From: Escherichia phage FL04
Sequence record: PP358550
Direction: 5' to 3' (one strand)
Length of the DNA: 64,000 nt
Part shown: positions 660 through 27,105 of the stretch, in pieces
Numbering within the stretch: position 1 is the first letter of the stretch
Layout: each line of letters opens with the position of its first letter
Position numbers and translations under genes: made by a program
The notes under the pieces: generated by a model
Seen by the model: the letters and a program-made list of their open reading frames with translations, nothing else
Told to the model about the DNA's origin: nothing
Databases searched by the model: none

Positions 660-1037
660 ATGAAAAATATGATTACGCCGGAAGATGTAGCATTCAAAAC
701 CGCATTCAACGGAGATATTCTTATTTTTATCGACGGTAAACACGCCGGAATGATTGAACCGGAAGGTCGCTGGGGTGTTGCTGAACTATATAACGTGGCG
801 GGTGTAGAAGGTCATAAAACAGCACTTGTTTTCTTGTCAGATAAAGATCAAATGCGTCGAAAAATTGCTGCGCTCTATAATGAAGCAGTATATTTCTACG
901 AACCGTTTCATCGTATTAAAACGATCTCCCGCGTGACTCGAAAAGATGTTAATGCTTGTGTTATCAAGATTGTAGAGAATCAGGATAAACTGACGAAAGA
1001 CCAGATTGTTGACTTACTGAAAGAGATTATTCTATGA
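660..1037 (+). CDS. hypothetical protein (125 aa)
   Basis: ATG preceded by AGGAGA; stop overlaps next start (ATGA). Confidence 0.65.
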   Translation: MKNMITPEDVAFKTAFNGDILIFIDGKHAGMIEPEGRWGVAELYNVAGVEGHKTALVFLSDKDQMRRKIAALYNEAVYFYEPFHRIKTISRVTRKDVNACVIKIVENQDKLTKDQIVDLLKEIIL

Positions 1038-1210
1038 TTGGATTTAAACAGTTTGTTGAAGAAAATAAACTCAAAGAAGATATGACCGCTGGCGATGCTG
1101 GCGGCAATCCTGAGAAGATCGCAGCAGGGGAAACGAGCGGATCTATTACCAATCGTGGACCTAGTGTAGCGGGTAAAGAAAAACGCAAAAAGGAGAAAGA
1201 CGGTGCTTAG
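1034..1210 (+). CDS. hypothetical small protein (58 aa, Lys-rich C-terminus)
   Basis: ATG overlapping upstream stop (ATGA); not in the ORF track (under 60 aa); part of a chain of translationally coupled small ORFs. Confidence 0.4.
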   Translation: MIGFKQFVEENKLKEDMTAGDAGGNPEKIAAGETSGSITNRGPSVAGKEKRKKEKDGA

Positions 1211-1361
1211 TATCATCATGTTTATCGTTGGCTTGCTGTCCGCTATTGTCGGTGTTGTTGTTTTCGGATTATCTGGACACAAAACAAAAACAGAAAAGTT
1301 ATCCGAGATCACAATGTATGTTGGTGTAGTTCTCATTCTGTTGTCGGTGGCGCTTAAATGA
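1203..1361 (+). CDS. hypothetical small membrane protein (about 52 aa, GTG start; alternative ATG at 1218)
   Basis: AAGGAG 7 nt upstream of GTG 1203; hydrophobic segments; stop overlaps ATG of next ORF. Confidence 0.35.
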   Translation: MLSIIMFIVGLLSAIVGVVVFGLSGHKTKTEKLSEITMYVGVVLILLSVALK

Positions 1362-1561
1362 TTACGATGAAATGTCTTAAAAGCACATATGCACTTTTTG
1401 AAGCCGGAAAAGAATATGAATTTACAGAACTTGATTCGGTAGGCCGTTTTCGTGTATTCTCTTACACATCGCCAGATGGTAGTGTCTACAAATTTGGCTT
1501 AGATGAGAACGGAGAGAATGAAAATGAAAGTGTGGGAACTTTCATGAAATTTGAGCTATAA
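1358..1561 (+). CDS. hypothetical protein (67 aa)
   Basis: ATG overlapping upstream stop; ends 10 nt before primase start. Confidence 0.55.
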   Translation: MITMKCLKSTYALFEAGKEYEFTELDSVGRFRVFSYTSPDGSVYKFGLDENGENENESVGTFMKFEL

Positions 1562-1570
1562 GAGGTTAAT

Positions 1571-2599
1571 ATGATTTACTACGCAGATTATGAAATAGCG
1601 GAAAAAGCCATATACGGCGAACGAAATTTTAAACGGTTGCATACTAGCTCATTTACGCTGGTCTGTAGTTGTCCGATCTGCGGTGACTCAAAGAAAAATC
1701 ATACTCAAGCGCGATTCCGTATCTATACCTATAAGGATAGTTTGCGTTGCGGCTGTTTCAACTGTAACTACAATCAGCCGTTAGGTGAATTTCTCAAACA
1801 GTATAAGCCGGACCTATTCAGGGAATGGCTTATGGAACGACGGAAGGAACAAGGCGACCACAAGAACACCACGTTCAAGCCACTGAAAAAGGTAGAAAAG
1901 CCGGAGATTAAGAAAGTGCAAACATTGCCTTTCTGCGAGAGATTAGATACTCTTCCGGCTAATCATCCTATAATAAAGTATGTCAGTGATCGCTGTATTC
2001 CTCACGATAAATGGGATCTTCTGTATTTCACTAGAGAATGGCAAAAGGTAGCAAATCACATTAAGGCTGATACTTTCAAGAATCCACAACCTGAACCGCG
2101 TTTAGTGATTCCTATCTTTAACCGCGAGAACAAGATAGAATCCATTCAGGGGCGAGCATTGAGAAAGGATTACGGAAAGACCAAATATATGACGATTAAA
2201 ACTCATGAGTTAGCGAGTAAGGTCTATGGTCTTGAACGCGCCGATCCGAGTAAACCAGTGTATTTCTTAGAAGGTCCGATCGATTCATTGTTTATTGATA
2301 ACGGGTGTGCAATTACTGGCGGTACTTTGGGATTAGATGAAATCCCTTTCCCAGACCAGCGAGTGTTTGTACTTGATGCGGAACCACGGTCTGCCGATAC
2401 AATGCACCGACTGGAAAAGTTTATCAATGCAGGTGAAAAGATTGTATTGTGGGACCGTTGCCCGTGGCATTCTAAAGACGTTAACGCCATGATTCAGGAC
2501 GAGGGCGCTACACGCGACCAGATCATGGAATATATCAAAGAGAACACCGTACAAGGTCTGATGGCTAAAATGCGGTTTATGAAATATTGTAAATTTTAA
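1571..2599 (+). CDS. 61: DNA primase gp61
   Basis: 342 aa; N-terminal Zn-ribbon CPICGDSKK...CFNCNY, conserved PIIKYV, LEGPIDSLFI, KDVNAMI..GAT motifs matching T4 gp61 along its length. Confidence 0.93.
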   Translation: MIYYADYEIAEKAIYGERNFKRLHTSSFTLVCSCPICGDSKKNHTQARFRIYTYKDSLRCGCFNCNYNQPLGEFLKQYKPDLFREWLMERRKEQGDHKNTTFKPLKKVEKPEIKKVQTLPFCERLDTLPANHPIIKYVSDRCIPHDKWDLLYFTREWQKVANHIKADTFKNPQPEPRLVIPIFNRENKIESIQGRALRKDYGKTKYMTIKTHELASKVYGLERADPSKPVYFLEGPIDSLFIDNGCAITGGTLGLDEIPFPDQRVFVLDAEPRSADTMHRLEKFINAGEKIVLWDRCPWHSKDVNAMIQDEGATRDQIMEYIKENTVQGLMAKMRFMKYCKF

Positions 2600-2607
2600 T
2601 TAATGAG

Positions 2608-3132
2608 GTGAATATGTCAGAATTTAATTCTTGTGCTGGTCTGGTTAACGAAAAAGATATTAACGCGGCTATCGCCGCATATCATCACGCTATTGCAGAA
2701 GGTAAAGATCCGTTTCAGGTGATGCTAGAAATGCAAACTGGTTTGCAGGTTGCATTATCAGAAAAATTTGATTGGGTCCCAAATCCAACTAAGCTAGAGA
2801 CTTGCGGTGAAATGCTGGATTGGATGCAGCGGATGGATGACGCTATCGCAGACGAAACACGAGAGCTTTACACATCGCTGGGTGGAATGTCCAATGGTAA
2901 AGATGCAAGTGCAATCTGGAAAATGTGGAAAAAGAACCACGGGGAAGCGCGAGCGCGTAAATTCTCTGAACTGTCACCGGAAGATCAGCTTGAAGTGAAA
3001 TTTGAATTTGTGGATGCGATCCACTTCATTCTGTCAAAGATGATCCCGCTGGGTATTGACGCTCAAGAACTCTTTATTCTGTACTATCTGAAAAATGCTG
3101 AAAACTTCGCCCGTCAAGAACGCGGCTACTAA
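2608..3132 (+). CDS. hypothetical protein, possibly all-alpha NTP-pyrophosphatase-like (candidate dCTPase gp56 analogue)
   Basis: 174 aa; acidic ExxxE / ExxD patterns (ETCGEMLDWMQRMDDAIADETRE, EDQLEVKFEFVD); T4 gp56 is recalled as a similar length, but that match is from memory and unverified. Confidence 0.35.
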   Translation: MNMSEFNSCAGLVNEKDINAAIAAYHHAIAEGKDPFQVMLEMQTGLQVALSEKFDWVPNPTKLETCGEMLDWMQRMDDAIADETRELYTSLGGMSNGKDASAIWKMWKKNHGEARARKFSELSPEDQLEVKFEFVDAIHFILSKMIPLGIDAQELFILYYLKNAENFARQERGY

Positions 3133-3139
3133 AAATTAG

Positions 3140-3168
3140 TTGACACTACTCTATAATGGTTTTATTAT
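3140..3168 (+). promoter_or_regulatory. sigma70-type early promoter (TTGACA-17-TATTAT)
   Basis: -35 TTGACA 3140-3145, -10 TATTAT 3163-3168; immediately followed by hairpin plus T-run. Confidence 0.5.
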
Positions 3169-3198
3169 GCCTCCCGTCGAAAGATTGGAGGCTTTTTT
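3169..3198 (+). terminator. hairpin plus T-run (terminator/attenuator) whose 3-prime arm contains the GGAGG Shine-Dalgarno of the next gene
   Basis: GCCTCC...GGAGGC stem followed by TTTTTTATT, 4 nt before ATG 3202. Confidence 0.55.
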
Positions 3199-3201
3199 AT
3201 T

Positions 3202-3705
3202 ATGCAATTTACACCAGAAGAACTTAACATCATTGATGAATTGATGAACTCTAAAGAAAATATCGATATGTCGATCCTTAATGGATTGATCGAAAAGACT
3301 GAACGGTTAGTGCATCATGAAGCCTTGTATCGCGGTGTGAGCAAAAGAGAAGGCCGTAAGCTGGATACCTTAATTGTAGGTGATTCTTTCGTTGTAGATC
3401 GTCCTATGAGCTTTACGCCACTGCAATCAACAGCAGAGGACTTTGCAACCGATGTTTATGCAACAGGAAAGATTATTGCAATAAAACCTACCAAGCCTTG
3501 CATGAATTATTACGAACATGCTATTGACCGAGTGGTGTCTAAAGAGTATGACAATCCGACTACTCGACTGTCTTTGTATGCTATGTTGGCAGATGAGCGC
3601 GAGTGCATATACAAGACAGGGACGACCATGATCCTTGATGAGATCGAGGAAGTTTACGCGTGTAATGGCGATCTGATAGAGATTTACAAATTTTCTTTAA
3701 TTTAA
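3202..3705 (+). CDS. putative ADP-ribosyltransferase (ModA/ModB-like)
   Basis: 167 aa; R (LYRGVS), S-x-T (MSFTPLQST) and E-x-E (ADERECI) motifs in the order expected for R-S-E type ARTs. Confidence 0.4.
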   Translation: MQFTPEELNIIDELMNSKENIDMSILNGLIEKTERLVHHEALYRGVSKREGRKLDTLIVGDSFVVDRPMSFTPLQSTAEDFATDVYATGKIIAIKPTKPCMNYYEHAIDRVVSKEYDNPTTRLSLYAMLADERECIYKTGTTMILDEIEEVYACNGDLIEIYKFSLI

Positions 3706-3708
3706 GTG

Positions 3709-3738
3709 TTGACAGCACAAACCAGATAGACAATAATA
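3709..3738 (+). promoter_or_regulatory. sigma70-type early promoter
   Basis: TTGACA 3709-3714, 17-nt spacer, AATAAT-like -10 at 3732-3738. Confidence 0.55.
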
Positions 3739-3766
3739 CACACATACCAACTAAGGAGAATCAATT

Positions 3767-4522
3767 ATGAAACTGTTTGCTTTTAAATCTAACGAAGAAT
3801 TGGCGCTGGTTGTTTTCCGGCTGAACTCTATCATGGCTGGCGCTTCACGTCGCAACAAAGACTTCTCTATGAGCTTAGTCACTGTTCGTAACATTTACCG
3901 TCAGACTCATTGTGTCTATTCAGGTGAGGCTTTCGGTGAAGGTGATGACGGACTCTCCTTAGAGCGCATTGATTGCAATCTGGGATATGTTGATGGCAAT
4001 GTAATTCCGGTTAAACTGAAATACAATTCTTTCCGTGGCAATCACACTATCGAATCTCTTAAAGAGATCCAAGAACTAGGAACTAACGGTAAACTTTCTG
4101 ATGATGAAATTGCCCTACGTGCGAAGTACATCGAGTGGATCGAACTTAACGAGAATCGCATCAAAAATCAGGAAATGGCAATCGAAGAAAAGAAATTAGC
4201 AATCGAGCGCCACAAAAAGCACAACGAACCGGAGAAAGCAGAGGCAGCCGAGCGAGCGATTAAAAATACTCTCTTCCGTATGGAAGAACGTTATCAGAAA
4301 ATTGCAGATCTCAAGCAAGCCCTTAGCGAAATCAACAAGAAAGAAGAAAAACTTAAGGCTATTGCAAACAATACCGAAATCGTGCTAAAATATACCAGCG
4401 TTTTGATTGAATCTCTTTCTAAGTATGAGAACTTAACGCCAGCACAAAAAGAACGCGTGAAATACGGGCTTCCGATTGATGCGTCGTGGATTGAATTGAT
4501 GAAAGCGAAGGTAGGTTTATAA
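3767..4522 (+). CDS. hypothetical protein with C-terminal coiled coil
   Basis: 251 aa; RBS AAGGAGA; N-terminal region has a degenerate HNH-like stretch (SLERIDCNLGYVDGNV) without His; C-terminal half is K/E-rich. Confidence 0.6.
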   Translation: MKLFAFKSNEELALVVFRLNSIMAGASRRNKDFSMSLVTVRNIYRQTHCVYSGEAFGEGDDGLSLERIDCNLGYVDGNVIPVKLKYNSFRGNHTIESLKEIQELGTNGKLSDDEIALRAKYIEWIELNENRIKNQEMAIEEKKLAIERHKKHNEPEKAEAAERAIKNTLFRMEERYQKIADLKQALSEINKKEEKLKAIANNTEIVLKYTSVLIESLSKYENLTPAQKERVKYGLPIDASWIELMKAKVGL

Positions 4523-21889: not shown

Positions 21890-22213
21890 ATGATCGAGTT
21901 TGAAATTGACAACTTTCACGAAAAAGCAGAAGACCTAACCAAAATTTTGATTAGTCGAGGTGCATATAATACGAAAGATATTATAAAAGAAGTTAATGTA
22001 GCGATGGACGCGATCCGAAAGGAATTTAAACATATTTCAGCGATTGGAGAAAATGGTCATCTTGAAGATGTTGAGCTGGTAGCACTGCGACGCTATTACT
22101 TCTTTGTTGATTGCATCATTGATCTAGCTAAAAATTATAGTCATTACATGAAAGATATTGTAAACGATGCACGTAAGTTGGCAGAGAATGTTTACGGGAA
22201 GTTTCCAGAATGA
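21890..22213 (+). CDS. hypothetical protein (107 aa), tandem paralog of 21443..21775
   Basis: ATG 21890 after GAGGTGA; shared C-terminal motif. Confidence 0.55.
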   Translation: MIEFEIDNFHEKAEDLTKILISRGAYNTKDIIKEVNVAMDAIRKEFKHISAIGENGHLEDVELVALRRYYFFVDCIIDLAKNYSHYMKDIVNDARKLAENVYGKFPE

Positions 22214-22458
22214 AATTAGAACAAGCGATTGTATACTTTGAGATGGGCTATGATATTGCTCGTGTAGAGTGGGAAGATGGTGATTTTGTCCGATTGATTG
22301 ATCTTCCAGAAACAGCTATTGCACTGGTCAAAGTAGAAAACGGCATACAACGAAATTACGCGTTTTCTGACGAAGACAAACAAGCCGATGACTGGTACGC
22401 TACCTGTTTTCATCATACAGCGTCAAAATGTGATTCAGGGGCTTCTATGCGCCAATAA
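22210..22458 (+). CDS. hypothetical protein (82 aa)
   Basis: Start overlaps upstream stop; last + strand gene before convergent terminator. Confidence 0.5.
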   Translation: MKLEQAIVYFEMGYDIARVEWEDGDFVRLIDLPETAIALVKVENGIQRNYAFSDEDKQADDWYATCFHHTASKCDSGASMRQ

Positions 22459-22492: not shown

Positions 22493-23149
22493 TTATCTAA
22501 TCCTTCCGAGGATTCTGGCAGATTGATTGCAAAGAGTATCTAAATTCTCAATGTCAATATCCGGTTTATTCTTCCATGAAATGGCGATACTACCAGAATA
22601 GACATTATCGAGATTGAATATAGGACAAGAATACATGAAACCTATATCGATATTCTCTAATTTCTTTTCTCTTGATGGAATATACTGGAAATCTTTATCG
22701 GTAAAATAGGATTTACCTAAAAGATGCCTACGATATTCTTCACTCGTTTTATTGATAGGGAATCCGCCTAAATTTTTTTCATCGATTGTATGCGGTAGCT
22801 TTCCTTCATATGCCACCAAATCAACAAAATAGTTTAGGTTTTTCGGACGAAAACTAAAAACAGCAGAAAAATCGGCATCAGCCGACACATGAACTATCTG
22901 TAACTGCTCCTGTGCTGCATTATCAAAATTGCGGTCTTTCTCTACCTGGAGAACGTGAGCATAAGTCTCATAACGAGTCTCTTTATACAAGGCAAATAAC
23001 TCGTTTTTACTATAGACGACAAATGCTAATATGGACAACACGACGGCAGCAAAAACACGAAGTACGAGCAACTCCGTGCTTTTAGTTGTGAAAATAGCGC
23101 GCAGGACATTTGAGATAGCAAAGTCTTTCCCTTTTTCAGAAACTTGCAT
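22493..23149 (-). CDS. t: holin T
   Basis: 218 aa, same length as T4 holin; conserved blocks EQLQIVH.S..ADFSAV.SFRPKNLNYFVD..AYEGKLP, MYSCP.FNLDN.Y.G, ARILGR; single N-terminal TM. Confidence 0.9.
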   Translation of the reverse strand: MQVSEKGKDFAISNVLRAIFTTKSTELLVLRVFAAVVLSILAFVVYSKNELFALYKETRYETYAHVLQVEKDRNFDNAAQEQLQIVHVSADADFSAVFSFRPKNLNYFVDLVAYEGKLPHTIDEKNLGGFPINKTSEEYRRHLLGKSYFTDKDFQYIPSREKKLENIDIGFMYSCPIFNLDNVYSGSIAISWKNKPDIDIENLDTLCNQSARILGRIR

Positions 23150-23182: not shown

Positions 23183-23422
23183 TTATTTAGGTACTTGACT
23201 ATCACTATTTTTATTTTGCTCGTTGCTATCTTCTGACTGATCTTTATTAAACTCCTTATAAAGTTCTTCCACAAAACGATCATCAATTGGCGTATTGGTA
23301 TAAGCCGCAAGACGACGAGCGCAATAGAAGAAAATTTTAGTGAGCATCTTTTCACTAATTAACTTTGACAATAATTTCATTCCGAAATTAGACAAAGCAC
23401 CAATGACGATATTATAGACCAT
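23183..23422 (-). CDS. hypothetical small protein (79 aa) between adhesin and holin genes
   Basis: AAGGAG 7 nt upstream of ATG on - strand; hydrophobic N-terminus, acidic C-terminus. Confidence 0.5.
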   Translation of the reverse strand: MVYNIVIGALSNFGMKLLSKLISEKMLTKIFFYCARRLAAYTNTPIDDRFVEELYKEFNKDQSEDSNEQNKNSDSQVPK

Positions 23423-23487
23423 AGCCGTTTCTCCTTAGTAGTTTCCCCTTCCGTGGGAGTTTTCCTTAATTCTTTTTATAATTGCGT

Positions 23488-24270
23488 CTAAACAGCCGGT
23501 CCGTAAATAGCTCCGCGATTTTGCCACGTTGGAGAAGACCCTATAACAGCATATCCAGAATCGCCGCCATTATATTCAGATCCTTGACCACGAATATTAC
23601 ATCTACCTCCTGCGGCGCCTACCTCACCACCGCTTCCACCATTATAGATACCGTTCACGGACCCCGAACCGGGCGCATAAAGAGTACCAGCAGTTGCGCC
23701 TGATTGCATATCAATAGATCCGCCCGGCGCACCAAACGGACGCCCACCGCCACCGCCAAAGGTTAATCTCATTTGTGAAAAAGGAGAATAATACCCACCA
23801 CCGCCACCGCCACCGCCACCTGCAATAGCTCCACCATTATTAATTCTTAGTCTCCCACCAATATCATTTTGAATACAATGCCCACCGGCTGATCCAGGAC
23901 CATTGCTACCGCCATTCCCGCCACGACCATACATCGTTACGCCATGTATATTCAACTGAACATATTCATTCGGTGTATCTCCGTACATAAAGAATAAAGG
24001 AACATCTTTAGAATATGATACTAAATCTCCAGTGATATTAAACACTATAGGTGTACTACCTGCTTCAAAGCATCTATCACGGAACCACTGACCGTTGAAG
24101 TTATGGTCTGCACCAAGTGTATGAATAATTTCTCGCGAGCGACCTGCAAATTGACTCATCCAGCAAGGAACACCCAATCTTAATTGACCAGCCGCTTGAC
24201 TCATCCATCTTTGTCCTGTTTCATTTGCGGCTGAACTTCCAATCCAACCAGGAACACCAACTACTGCCAT
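23488..24270 (-). CDS. 38: receptor-recognising tail fibre adhesin gp38 (T2-type, glycine-rich motifs)
   Basis: 260 aa; N-terminus [48 protein letters not shown] matches T2-type gp38 attachment domain; poly-Gly motifs ([11 protein letters not shown]). Confidence 0.88.
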
Positions 24271-24306: not shown

Positions 24307-27105
24307 TTAGAATTTAAAATATTTACTAATTTTGCGAGCAATTTTAGTAAAGAGAGGCGTTTTCAATTCTTTAATTTCTTCACTCATTTCCTGAATAGCC
24401 TTAATTAAAAGAGCATTCACAGCGGAGTTAGAAATTGTCAGAACATCAGATCCATCAACTTCAACTTTAGACACAGCTTCCGGTAATTCTTTTTCAAGAT
24501 CCTGAGCAATAATACCAACTTCGCGTTTAATCACGCTACGATCTTTAATAGACTTAACTTTATCGTAAGTATAAACTTTCAGTCGGCAAACTTTTTCGAC
24601 CGCTCCATATTCTAATTCTTCTTTATTAATCTTGAGACGGGAGTCAGAACGAATATACACATCGCTAAAGCTACCATTTCCTGGTGTATAAAAGAATCCA
24701 TCATGATGGAATTCAAATATAGCTTGTGGGTGTCCAGCATCAGGAGAAGCCTCCGTGGATCCGACGCGAATGATTGCTTGCCCCCACTGTGATGGAATAC
24801 GACGCATACCAAAGTCAACAGCGGTGCTATATCCTTGATTGGTTATAACGCTTCTTGCTTTAAGAATAGGATAATAACTATCTTGACCAACATAACCATG
24901 ATCAACGAATAATGGAGCTTCTACTCGCCATTGGTTGCCCCAATCACCCGGTTGTCTAGCAATCCATCCAGAACCGTTAATGTGTACACGGTCGCGGTTA
25001 ACGTTAACCATTAAGGTATTTTGCGGGTTTAACGCAATCTCACCATTGTTTGTTATATGTACTGCCGCCTGAGTAGCATAGCTATAAAATGCTAGCGAAT
25101 TATCAGCACCACCTTTACCAATATACCAGTTACCATTCCCGTCTACGTCACCGCGAATATGCAAAGCGTTGCTGGCTGTAGTCGATAATACAATAGCATC
25201 ACCCGGACGTTTAATAGTCAATCGACCAGTTGATTCAACTTCACCAAAGAATTTAGTTTTAATTGCACCAGTCGCTAAAGTACGTTCAGTGGAAAAATGA
25301 GCGCCTTTACTATCTTCTAACTGAATAATGTTATCACGAGCGTTATTGCTATCACCCCAATGATTAAACCGGAAATAATCGCGTGATTGCTTACCACCCG
25401 CTTCAAACGTCAGCGTACCTTTACTTAAATTAACATCACCGCTAAAGGTAGCAGCAAGAGAACCGCCTTTTAATACTAAAGCGTTAGCACCGCTAGTGCC
25501 ACCCAAAGTAACATCGCCAGTTTTTAATTGATAGCGGAAAGGTCTATTTGTATTAAAGTTTCCATCTTGATCATTTTCGTCGGTGGAAAGAATATAAAGA
25601 CTTTCACCATCATTACGGAAAATTGTGCCAAATTTACCGCCATACATACGGAATGCATTAGATGAGCGGAATTTAACTTCTGTTTTAAATGTGGTAGTGT
25701 TATTAAGGTTAACAGTAGAGTTAAAATTGGTAGGAGCACCGAAGTTAACAGCACCATTAAAATCTTGTTGAGCTGTCCATGTGTGGCGACCATCTTCAAG
25801 AACAACACGGCGGACTGTGTAAGTTCTATTTCCAGAATTACCGAACACACGAACGACAAAATAACGGTAGTTTGTCTGGGATACAGTACCGCGCCAAACC
25901 TGAACAGTACGCCCTGTGCTAGTGTGTTCACTAGGACCAACGGAAAACATAACCAGGTTTCCGTCAATCGTCCCCCAATCCATATTTGCTGGCATGTTCT
26001 TTATTTTGTTCAAAGGAACGCTAAACATACTACCAGGAACAAAATCAAAGGTTTGCCAATCTAACTCCGCTAATTGAGCTTTAATACCACCCATACCCAA
26101 AGTAATTGGAAGAGAATAAGATGTATATACTTCGTTCCATACACCCCACGCACCACCAGTATATGCACGCTCAAAAATACGATCGCGAGTAGTTGCACCC
26201 GTTCCGGCAGTAGTAAATTTTTGGAAAATAGCACCACCAGAAGCACGCTGTTTAACTTCCAGCAAACCAACAATAACGGCTGGTAAACCTTCACCAGTAG
26301 GACAGTTAATAACGGCATCAGTGCCTAAAATGTTATATAACCCAGGAGTTTTAAAATCATTCAGATCTCCATCATAGAAAGTCGCTGGTGTGCCATGACC
26401 AACCTGCTTCCATTCCTCCCACTTAGGTGCACTAGCATCCCATGCAGCAGCGAGACAACGAGTATAAACCATACCCATGCGGGTAGTATAACGCTGCGTT
26501 CTTGTGTAGAAACCACCTTCAAATATTTCTAAAAATCCTTGTGCGGCTGATCCTTCTTCTGGATAATGGCGATCAAATGATGCGATTGCGCTTGAACTGT
26601 TTCTCCATAAGCCACAATGTTCTAATTCTCCCAAGCTATCAAGGTCAATCGTTTGTGAAAGTGGACGAGTTGACGCTTGAACATTACGCCACACACCCCA
26701 TGGACCATCTACACCATTCCATTTCGCAGACAAAGAACGGATATAAACGTTACCAGACCGAACAGTATAACGCTGAGTGCCAGCAAATTGACCAGCCACA
26801 AATACTTCTAATACACCTACAGCATTCTCTTCTGGGAATTTATTTGCTGGCTGCGCATTTGTTGAAGTTGATTTAGACCAAACGCCAGTAAATTTACCAG
26901 TAGGTCCATAATTATCTAAATTTGCATCAGATGGCAACTCACCGCGAAAGTGTCCCAAAGTAATTACATTATTGCTGTCATCTTTTGTATATAGTTCTCG
27001 ATCCGCTAGGTTAATAGCAAGTTCACCCGGAGTTAGAATATTCGCATCCGGCTTGCGACCTGCCGTACTTGTTCTTTTAAATTGGATTCTCTGTAAATCT
27101 GCCAT
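24307..27105 (-). CDS. 37: long tail fibre distal subunit gp37 with C-terminal intramolecular chaperone (S74-like) domain
   Basis: 932 aa; N-terminus MADLQRIQFKRTSTAGRKPDANILTPGELAINLADRELYTKDD matches gp37; C-terminal SDVYIRS/DSRLKINKEE...AVNALLIKAIQEM resembles autoproteolytic chaperone domain. Confidence 0.88.
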   Translation of the reverse strand: MADLQRIQFKRTSTAGRKPDANILTPGELAINLADRELYTKDDSNNVITLGHFRGELPSDANLDNYGPTGKFTGVWSKSTSTNAQPANKFPEENAVGVLEVFVAGQFAGTQRYTVRSGNVYIRSLSAKWNGVDGPWGVWRNVQASTRPLSQTIDLDSLGELEHCGLWRNSSSAIASFDRHYPEEGSAAQGFLEIFEGGFYTRTQRYTTRMGMVYTRCLAAAWDASAPKWEEWKQVGHGTPATFYDGDLNDFKTPGLYNILGTDAVINCPTGEGLPAVIVGLLEVKQRASGGAIFQKFTTAGTGATTRDRIFERAYTGGAWGVWNEVYTSYSLPITLGMGGIKAQLAELDWQTFDFVPGSMFSVPLNKIKNMPANMDWGTIDGNLVMFSVGPSEHTSTGRTVQVWRGTVSQTNYRYFVVRVFGNSGNRTYTVRRVVLEDGRHTWTAQQDFNGAVNFGAPTNFNSTVNLNNTTTFKTEVKFRSSNAFRMYGGKFGTIFRNDGESLYILSTDENDQDGNFNTNRPFRYQLKTGDVTLGGTSGANALVLKGGSLAATFSGDVNLSKGTLTFEAGGKQSRDYFRFNHWGDSNNARDNIIQLEDSKGAHFSTERTLATGAIKTKFFGEVESTGRLTIKRPGDAIVLSTTASNALHIRGDVDGNGNWYIGKGGADNSLAFYSYATQAAVHITNNGEIALNPQNTLMVNVNRDRVHINGSGWIARQPGDWGNQWRVEAPLFVDHGYVGQDSYYPILKARSVITNQGYSTAVDFGMRRIPSQWGQAIIRVGSTEASPDAGHPQAIFEFHHDGFFYTPGNGSFSDVYIRSDSRLKINKEELEYGAVEKVCRLKVYTYDKVKSIKDRSVIKREVGIIAQDLEKELPEAVSKVEVDGSDVLTISNSAVNALLIKAIQEMSEEIKELKTPLFTKIARKISKYFKF

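What the first reader, a model, noticed from the sequence alone, without database searches (positions are those of the whole stretch)
23183..23422. Unassigned small gene inserted between the gp38 adhesin and the holin
A 79-aa ORF with a strong RBS (AAGGAG) lies on the late strand between gp38 and t, where T4 has no gene that I recall. It has a hydrophobic/amphipathic N-terminus and an acidic tail; its position suggests a role in lysis timing (antiholin-like) or fibre assembly.
Basis: inference. Interest (0 to 1): 0.35.

Follow-up and report, generated by a model that had tools for sequence, protein, structure and literature searches.

The report
PM2 P18-like lysis gene beside holin
The small gene between the tail-fibre adhesin and the holin is real and conserved, and it belongs to a known family of small phage lysis helper proteins first described in the marine phage PM2, so it is an unannotated member of a known kind, not a new system.

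Summary
The 79-aa ORF at 23183..23422 (-) exists as described. AAGGAG lies 8 nt before the ATG, gp38 adhesin is upstream and holin t downstream. T4 has only a 20-bp gap at this position.

It is a genuine gene. dN/dS is 0.13-0.24 against diverged orthologues. All 58 of 58 phage records with an RB49-type t carry it, always as "hypothetical protein" (RB49p252/Dc5).

It belongs to Pfam PF26925 "Phage_PM2_Gpl" and PHROG 402. PM2 gp l hits the same PHROG, and a profile comparison with gp l gives 96% probability, E 1.6e-9. From memory, gp l is PM2 P18. The literature describes P18 as a non-structural lysis factor needed to disrupt the outer membrane, alongside the holin-like P17.

In RB49-like genomes the upstream fibre module varies, but the downstream neighbour is always holin T. 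The family also occurs in tailless phages and beside lysozymes, spanins or single-pass coiled-coil proteins in other lineages.

Best reading: a small three-helix accessory lysis protein working with the holin at envelope disruption. A fibre-assembly role is rejected. An antiholin role is unsupported but not excluded. The mechanism remains inferred. Novelty: new member of a known kind. Interest is low to moderate.

The parts
23183..23422 (-). Gene for a 79-aa protein of the PM2 gp l family (PF26925 / PHROG 402). It is the orthologue of RB49p252 ('Dc5').
   Evidence: ORF; PHROG 402 E 5e-20; orthologues carry precomputed PF26925 = Phage_PM2_Gpl; dN/dS 0.13-0.24; present in 58/58 Krischvirus-type records.
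23246..23377 (-). Conserved core, residues 16-59: end of helix 1, S-E turn, aromatic/basic helix 2 (KIFFYCARRLAAY), T-N-T-P-I-D-D helix-cap motif, and acidic amphipathic helix 3. This is the part that aligns with PM2 gp l residues 8-51.
   Evidence: hhalign of the family profile against PM2 gp l: probability 96.3%, E 1.6e-9. Residues conserved across the family are T42, D47 and D48. AF2 helices at 2-21, 24-41 and 45-71, mean pLDDT 87.6.
23186..23245 (-). Lineage-specific polar, mildly acidic C-terminal tail (residues 60-79). It is absent from the Felix O1-type and PM2 proteins.
   Evidence: Alignments; pLDDT about 70.
23431..23436 (-). Shine-Dalgarno sequence AAGGAG, 8 nt upstream of the ATG.
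   Evidence: Read from the sequence; conserved in RB49 and L012.
23443..23459 (-). Small conserved hairpin (…TCCCACGGAAGGG…) just 5' of the ribosome-binding site. No U-run follows it on the sense strand, so it is not a terminator for this operon. Its role is unknown.
   Evidence: Detected as an inverted repeat; the sequence is conserved in 4 of 5 orthologous loci although the upstream gene differs.
22493..23149 (-). Holin t, the invariant downstream partner of the gene.
   Evidence: PF11031 E 1e-60 and PHROG 860 E 8e-88; always directly downstream of the gp l homologue in RB49-like genomes.
23488..24270 (-). T2-type gp38 adhesin. It is context only and part of the exchangeable fibre module, not of the feature.
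   Evidence: PF05268 and PF21721. RB49 has no gp38 here. Similarity to RB49 resumes at about 23478, just downstream of the gp38 stop.

Best explanation
The ORF is a real late gene. It encodes a small three-helix protein of the PM2 gp l family (Pfam PF26925, PHROG 402). In this RB49-like (Krischvirus) phage it forms a fixed two-gene block with holin t.

Proposed mechanism, by homology. The protein is made late together with T and is not part of the virion. It has no signal peptide, no lipobox and no strong membrane span. It is therefore likely to sit in the cytoplasm or at the inner face of the membrane until T opens holes and the endolysin cuts the wall. It then helps the last step of envelope breakdown, which in PM2 is destabilisation of the cation-stiffened outer membrane. 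It would act through its hydrophobic N-terminal helix and amphipathic helices 2 and 3. Because RB49-type phages also carry T4-type spanins, it is probably auxiliary or conditionally needed, not essential.

Shown here: the gene is real, the family membership, the linkage to t, and the lysis-gene neighbourhoods in other lineages. Inferred: the timing, the location and the step at which it acts.
For: (1) Family membership. ORF79 hits PHROG 402 at E 5e-20, and PM2 gp l hits the same PHROG at E 8e-14. The family profile against gp l gives hhalign probability 96.3%, E 1.6e-9. Orthologues 64-96% identical carry precomputed PF26925, named Phage_PM2_Gpl.

(2) Function of the founding member. [quoted passage not shown] P12-P18 are non-structural (PMC5656799).

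(3) Linkage. In five RB49-like genomes the upstream gene is gp38, gp37 alone, an S74 fibre plus three small ORFs, or a Gp10_C fibre. The downstream gene is always Phage_holin_T. All 58 of 58 records with this t also carry the gene.

(4) Other lineages place homologues next to a lysozyme, next to a P5-type wall hydrolase plus small membrane/coiled-coil proteins in a tailless autolykivirus, directly before an Rz-like spanin (PHROG 1152, E 3e-23) and a lipoprotein, and beside single-span coiled-coil proteins that resemble PM2 P17.

(5) Purifying selection: dN/dS 0.13-0.24.

(6) Apart from one doubtfully labelled record, the cultured hosts named in the tblastn hit lists are Gram-negative, that is, they have an outer membrane.
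Against: Function has been tested in only one, very distant member (pairwise BLASTP to gp l is not significant, E 0.57), and in a spanin-less marine phage.

RB49 and Felix O1-type phages have canonical two-component spanins. One lineage even has the homologue adjacent to Rz/Rz1-like genes. The protein is therefore not simply a spanin substitute and may act at another step.

The equation gp l = P18 rests on my recollection of the 2007 abstract plus gene order; that paper was not readable here.

The local Pfam copy lacks PF26925, so that model could not be run on the window protein itself.

Some contexts show no adjacent lysis gene (Aeromonas LAh_8).

No expression or phenotype data were found. 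The Bas63 gene-essentiality paper does not mention the homologue bas63_0028.
Confidence: 0.6

Rival explanations
1. It is a holin modulator: an antiholin, or a cytoplasmic or peripheral cofactor. It would bind T, or the single-span holin-like partner in other phages, and tune the timing of hole formation instead of attacking the outer membrane.
For: The gene lies invariably next to t. In several lineages it sits next to single-span coiled-coil proteins. It coexists with spanins, so an outer-membrane role would be redundant. Small helical cytoplasmic antiholins exist (T4 RIII; my own knowledge).
Against: There is no similarity to any antiholin family in PHROGs, Pfam or NCBIfam. The studied member is described as acting on the outer membrane, not on timing. 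The adjacent holin-like proteins are unrelated to one another (T, P17-like, none), which is hard to reconcile with a specific binding partner. There is no dual-start arrangement: Met15 is not conserved and has no Shine-Dalgarno sequence.
Confidence: 0.15
2. It is itself a small membrane-permeabilising protein (holin- or pinholin-like, or a membrane-active peptide) that contributes holes in the cytoplasmic membrane.
For: About two thirds of family members have an N-terminal helix above the usual membrane-span threshold; the median best 19-residue hydropathy is 1.75. In L009/L016 the homologue (hydropathy 2.29) occupies the position before Rz/Rz1 where a holin usually lies. In Vibrio phage 1.038.O it follows the lysozyme with no other obvious holin nearby.
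Against: The window protein's own helix scores only 1.31 and carries two lysines. The phage already has a full T holin next door. In PM2, permeabilisation of the cytoplasmic membrane is ascribed to P17, not P18.
Confidence: 0.1
3. It is a tail-fibre or adhesin assembly factor, or a fibre accessory protein, as its position after gp37/gp38 might suggest.
For: It lies immediately after fibre genes in Krischvirus, Felixounavirus and some podophages.
Against: Homologues occur in tailless Corticoviridae and Autolykiviridae. Within RB49-like phages it is unchanged while four different fibre or adhesin modules are swapped in upstream. The Bas63 virion structure paper makes no mention of the homologue gp28 (no occurrence of 'gp28' in its text). 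It has no similarity to Tfa/gp38-type chaperones.
Confidence: 0.03
4. It is not a functional gene, only a chance ORF in AT-rich DNA.
For: Many spurious ORFs of similar length occur nearby.
Against: dN/dS is 0.13-0.24. Profile E-values reach 1e-20. An exhaustive search found 98 cluster representatives at E <= 0.001. It is conserved in 58 of 58 records and has a good ribosome-binding site.
Confidence: 0.01

Closest known systems
Pseudoalteromonas phage PM2 gp l (ORF l; protein P18 by my recollection), Pfam PF26925 'Phage_PM2_Gpl', PHROG 402
   Same: Same sequence family: shared PHROG and 96% hhalign probability. Both are small proteins with the same layout of hydrophobic helix, S/T-E turn, helix, T-x-T/N-x-x-D-D cap and amphipathic helix. 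Both lie at the end of a late operon beside a holin-type gene, and neither has a signal peptide or lipobox.
   Different: The window protein is 79 aa against 51, with an extra N-terminal stretch and a polar acidic tail. Its partner is the large T4-type holin T instead of the 53-aa P17. The host phage is a tailed T4-like myovirus that also has spanins, whereas PM2 is tailless and spanin-less. Pairwise identity is too low for BLAST (E 0.57).
Two-component spanins (lambda Rz/Rz1; T4 PseT.3/PseT.2)
   Same: The proposed step is the same, final disruption of the outer membrane after holin and endolysin have acted. They are sometimes encoded side by side (L009/L016).
   Different: It has no N-terminal membrane span with a long periplasmic coiled coil and no lipoprotein signal, so it cannot bridge the periplasm in the same way. 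It coexists with spanins instead of replacing them.
Spanin-independent outer-membrane disruptors such as phiKT gp28 'disruptin' (my own knowledge; phiKT is listed as spanin-less in PMC6139136)
   Same: A small helical amphipathic protein proposed to attack the outer membrane from within.
   Different: Not cationic: net charge is 0 overall and +3 for residues 1-60, and the family median is 0. No sequence relationship was tested or seen.
T4 antiholins RI and RIII
   Different: No sequence similarity was detected to any annotated family. The gene family is shared with phages that have unrelated holins. The studied relative is not a timing regulator.

Membership tests
PM2 gp l family (PF26925 / PHROG 402; gp l = P18 by my recollection) | Significant match to the family profile | tested here: met
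   ORF79 matches PHROG 402 at E 5e-20, residues 9-62 against profile positions 4-57 of 58. PM2 gp l matches PHROG 402 at E 8e-14. Orthologues 64-96% identical carry precomputed PF26925. The PF26925 model itself is missing from the local Pfam copy.
PM2 gp l family (PF26925 / PHROG 402; gp l = P18 by my recollection) | Detectable homology to the founding protein, PM2 gp l | tested here: met
   hhalign of the 68-sequence family profile against gp l gives probability 96.3%, E 1.6e-9 over 44 columns. A chain of pairwise links also exists. Direct BLASTP is not significant.
PM2 gp l family (PF26925 / PHROG 402; gp l = P18 by my recollection) | Size and architecture: 50-85 aa, hydrophobic helix, turn, helix, T-x-T/N-x-x-D-D cap, amphipathic helix | tested here: met
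   Family alignments. AF2 model with three helices, pLDDT 87.6. T42, D47 and D48 are conserved across the family.
PM2 gp l family (PF26925 / PHROG 402; gp l = P18 by my recollection) | Encoded within or beside lysis genes, next to a holin-type gene | tested here: met
   Always directly upstream of t. Lysis-gene neighbours are seen in 6 of 8 lineages examined.
PM2 gp l family (PF26925 / PHROG 402; gp l = P18 by my recollection) | Required for outer-membrane disruption at lysis; non-structural | not testable with these tools
   Known only for PM2 from the literature. No phenotype data were found for RB49-like or Felix O1-like homologues.
Spanins (i-spanin / o-spanin / u-spanin) | N-terminal membrane span plus periplasmic coiled coil, or a lipoprotein signal with lipobox cysteine | tested here: not met
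   Best 19-residue hydropathy is 1.31. The only cysteine (C34) lies inside helix 2 with no lipobox. There are no spanin PHROG hits.
Antiholins (RI, RIII, dual-start S107 type) | Homology to RI/RIII, or an alternative start of the holin gene itself, or a signal-anchor-release domain | tested here: not met
   It is a separate gene. There are no hits to lysis-inhibition families in PHROGs, Pfam or NCBIfam. The internal Met15 is not conserved.
Tail-fibre assembly proteins / chaperones (T4 gp38, Tfa) | Homology to Tfa/gp38 chaperones and co-variation with the fibre tip they fold | tested here: not met
   There are no such hits. The gene is unchanged across four different fibre modules and is present in tailless phages.

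The most novel reading that the evidence does not exclude
P18-like proteins may be a widespread, overlooked additional component of Gram-negative phage lysis, functionally tied to the holin and not a mere spanin substitute. They persist in phages that have full spanin sets and even sit next to Rz/Rz1. The RB49-like and Felix O1-like homologues would then make this unexplained PM2 function testable in E. coli. The same logic points to the Felix O1-type 123-aa single-span coiled-coil neighbour as that group's missing holin.
Probability: 0.3. Interest if true: 0.5.

Novelty: new member of a known kind. Interest (0 to 1): 0.3.

Why it matters
Every public RB49-like and Felix O1-like genome examined labels this gene 'hypothetical protein'. 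Recognising it as a PM2 P18-family lysis factor gives it a testable function. It also provides genetically tractable E. coli phages in which to work out how P18-type proteins act, which has not been resolved since the PM2 work of 2007. Finally, it shows that the boundary of the exchangeable host-range (fibre/adhesin) cassette lies just upstream of this gene, so engineering of gp37/gp38 should leave the ORF79-t block intact.

Tried and rejected
- The local Pfam and NCBIfam scans of the protein gave only sub-threshold noise (TPR_LAA1_C, DUF1287), because PF26925 is not in the local copy.
- Foldseek of the AF2 model against the PDB and BFVD returned nothing informative beyond the ECD7 orthologue. 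A three-helix protein is too simple for fold matching.
- Full-text searches for 'PF26925', 'phrog_402' and 'gp l' found no paper. The key 2007 PM2 lysis paper is not held.
- The search for related loci with the broad family alignment failed for lack of a conserved 7-10-column stretch.
- The Bas63 essentiality paper has no held supplements and does not mention gp28/gp29. The Bas63 structure paper does not mention them either.
- A late-promoter-like TATAAAAA at 23480..23473 (-) is not conserved in RB49 or L012, and no exact TATAAATA lies nearby, so I do not claim a dedicated promoter.
- The long repetitive 'hits' in the exhaustive search (P0041, P0057, P0122) are low-complexity repeats, not family members.
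- The Photobacterium phage PhCF1.2 context was uninformative because the gene sits at the genome end.
- The 'Listeria' host of one hit is doubtful. That genome is an Ounavirinae with Felix O1 synteny.

Full report
**Observation**

The window is an RB49-like T4-type phage (Krischvirus). The best match to the ORF is Escherichia phage FL20 at 100% identity; RB49 is at 94%.

On the minus strand the gene order is:
- gp37 at 24307..27105;
- a T2-type gp38 adhesin at 23488..24270 (PF05268 E 4e-71);
- the 79-aa ORF at 23183..23422;
- holin t at 22493..23149 (PF11031 E 1e-60).

The ORF starts with ATG, and AAGGAG lies 8 nt upstream. In T4, genes 38 and t are only 20 bp apart, so T4 has no counterpart. 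The description of the protein is also accurate. It has a hydrophobic/amphipathic N-terminal helix and a polar, mildly acidic tail.

**Is it a gene?**

ORF length alone proves nothing here, because many spurious ORFs of 60-100 aa overlap the region. Four lines of evidence show it is real.
- The protein matches PHROG 402 at E 5e-20.
- An exhaustive profile search of 1.8 billion cluster representatives found 98 at E <= 0.001. Nearly all are 55-85 aa and share one architecture.
- Codon comparison with RB49 and three diverged metagenomic orthologues gives dN/dS of 0.13-0.24 wherever there is enough divergence.
- All 58 phage records that carry this type of t gene also carry the ORF-t block at 95% identity or more. 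In every annotated record the ORF is a 'hypothetical protein'. RB49 lists it as RB49p252, with a shorter alternative called Dc5.

The longer start is the better one. Homology to distant relatives begins at residue 2. Met15 is not conserved and has no ribosome-binding site.

**What family is it?**

The precomputed Pfam label on orthologues is PF26925, which a later tool output names Phage_PM2_Gpl. The local Pfam copy lacks this model, so I tested the link independently in three ways.
- PM2 ORF l (51 aa, the last gene of the PM2 late operon) hits the same PHROG 402 at E 8e-14.
- A 68-sequence family profile aligns to it with hhalign probability 96.3%, E 1.6e-9. ORF79 residues 16-59 align to gp l residues 8-51.
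- A chain of pairwise links runs through an autolykivirus protein.

Direct BLASTP is not significant, as expected for proteins this short and this diverged.

The shared layout is a hydrophobic helix, an S/T-E turn, an aromatic/basic helix, a T-x-T/N-x-x-D-D helix cap (the most conserved residues) and an amphipathic helix. AlphaFold2 with the family alignment gives three helices (2-21, 24-41, 45-71) at mean pLDDT 87.6. Fold searches were uninformative.

**What is known about the family?**

Reviews citing Krupovic et al. 2007 state the following. In PM2, P17 perforates the cytoplasmic membrane as a distinct kind of holin. [quoted passage not shown] P12-P18 are non-structural. From memory, the 2007 abstract says that gp k is the holin-like factor and the 51-aa gp l is the outer-membrane factor. 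This fits what I see: gp k has a strong membrane span (hydropathy 2.19) followed by a coiled coil, and gp l has none. I could not read the original paper. PM2 is listed among spanin-less phages.

**Genomic context**

Within RB49-like genomes the upstream neighbour varies:
- gp38 adhesin (this window, and L014);
- gp37 alone (RB49);
- an S74-domain fibre followed by three roughly 100-aa paralogues (L012);
- a Gp10_C-type fibre (L013).

The downstream neighbour is always Phage_holin_T. Similarity between this window and RB49 resumes at about position 23478, just downstream of the gp38 stop. The gene therefore belongs to the conserved t block and not to the exchangeable fibre cassette.

Other lineages show these arrangements.
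- PM2: wall hydrolase P5, P6, gp k, gp l.
- A tailless autolykivirus: P5-like hydrolase, gp l-like protein, and two small membrane/coiled-coil proteins.
- Vibrio phage 1.038.O: the homologue directly follows the lysozyme.
- A 70-kb uncultured phage: it directly precedes an Rz-like spanin (PHROG 1152, E 3e-23) and a lipoprotein with weak Rz1/LysC similarity.
- A group of podophages with an SU10-type capsid: it sits with a single-span coiled-coil protein and often a DUF5675 protein, embedded among tail genes.
- Felix O1-type phages: it follows the long tail fibre and precedes a 123-aa single-span coiled-coil protein.
- Aeromonas phage LAh_8: no obvious lysis neighbour.

The cultured hosts named in the hit lists are Gram-negative. 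The one exception is a 'Listeria' label on an Ounavirinae genome with Felix O1 synteny, which I regard as doubtful.

**Interpretation**

The best-supported reading is an accessory lysis protein of the P18 family that works with holin T at envelope disruption.

A fibre-assembly role is rejected for three reasons. The family occurs in tailless phages. The gene ignores fibre swaps. The Bas63 virion structure paper, which models the structural proteins, makes no mention of the homologue gp28.

An antiholin role is not supported. There is no similarity to antiholin families, the adjacent holin types are unrelated to one another, and there is no dual start. It cannot be excluded, however.

A caution applies to the simple 'outer-membrane disruptor' model. 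RB49 and Felix O1-type phages carry canonical spanins. One lineage has the homologue next to Rz/Rz1. The protein is therefore not merely a spanin replacement. It may be conditionally needed, or it may act in concert with the holin. In this window the N-terminal helix is too weakly hydrophobic to be called a membrane span (1.31, against 2.86 for T), although two thirds of relatives exceed the usual threshold.

**Expression signals**

The three genes are co-oriented with short gaps. A TATAAAAA upstream is not conserved, and no exact late-promoter box lies nearby. Co-transcription with the fibre genes is therefore the simplest assumption. A small hairpin just before the ribosome-binding site is conserved in four of five orthologous loci. 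Its role is unknown.

**Verdict**

The feature is an unannotated member of a known, experimentally anchored family. Its value is mostly in annotation, and in offering E. coli phages in which to study the P18 mechanism. Interest is low to moderate.

Noticed in passing
window 22210..22458 (+): The 82-aa ORF convergent with t matches the Thoeris anti-defence Tad2-like domain (PF11195) at 27.9 bits against a cut-off of 25, E 3e-6. Its orthologues in L012 and L014 carry the same weak label. It is a possible anti-Thoeris gene next to the holin.
   Followed up: partly
window 23488..24270 (-) versus L001 (RB49) 1019..3958: This phage has a T2-type gp38 adhesin where RB49 has none (gp37 runs straight into the ORF79-t block). 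Other relatives have still other fibre tips. The swap boundary lies at about window 23478.
   Followed up: partly
L002 5187..5558 (wV8 gene 85); L020 9323..9694 (bas63_0029): In Felix O1-type phages the gp l homologue is followed by a 123-aa protein with one N-terminal membrane span and a long coiled coil (PHROG 4038, unknown function). This resembles PM2 holin-like P17 in layout. Bas63 has an annotated endolysin and spanins but, in the regions I retrieved (14-30 kb and 44-87 kb), no annotated holin. This protein is therefore a candidate holin.
   Followed up: partly
L009 6001..6905; L016 1662..2566: An uncultured ~70-kb phage with beta-helix tail proteins has the order gp l homologue, Rz-like i-spanin (PHROG 1152, E 3e-23), lipoprotein (o-spanin-like). 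The P18-like gene thus sits where a holin usually lies.
   Followed up: partly
L003 3587..3976; L015 4624..5010: DUF5675 proteins next to the gp l homologue in SU10-capsid-type podophages carry an H-x-G...G-C-I motif and a weak Tlde1 (L,D-transpeptidase-like) match. This suggests an unrecognised cell-wall hydrolase serving as the endolysin.
   Followed up: no
window 23443..23459: A small hairpin (TCCCACGGAAGGG) just upstream of the ribosome-binding site is conserved in 4 of 5 orthologous loci even though the upstream gene differs. Its function is unknown.
   Followed up: partly
L012 4047..4950: Three tandem ~100-aa paralogues (G-W-x-x-I-P-N-G-W motif, glycine-rich) lie between an S74-domain fibre and the gp l homologue in a metagenomic RB49 relative. 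They may be adhesin-like or fibre-tip accessory proteins.
   Followed up: no
L022 (OK283618.1, 'Listeria phage LPML1'): This genome is classified in Ounavirinae and has Felix O1 synteny around the gp l homologue (thymidylate synthase downstream). The Listeria host label looks doubtful.
   Followed up: no
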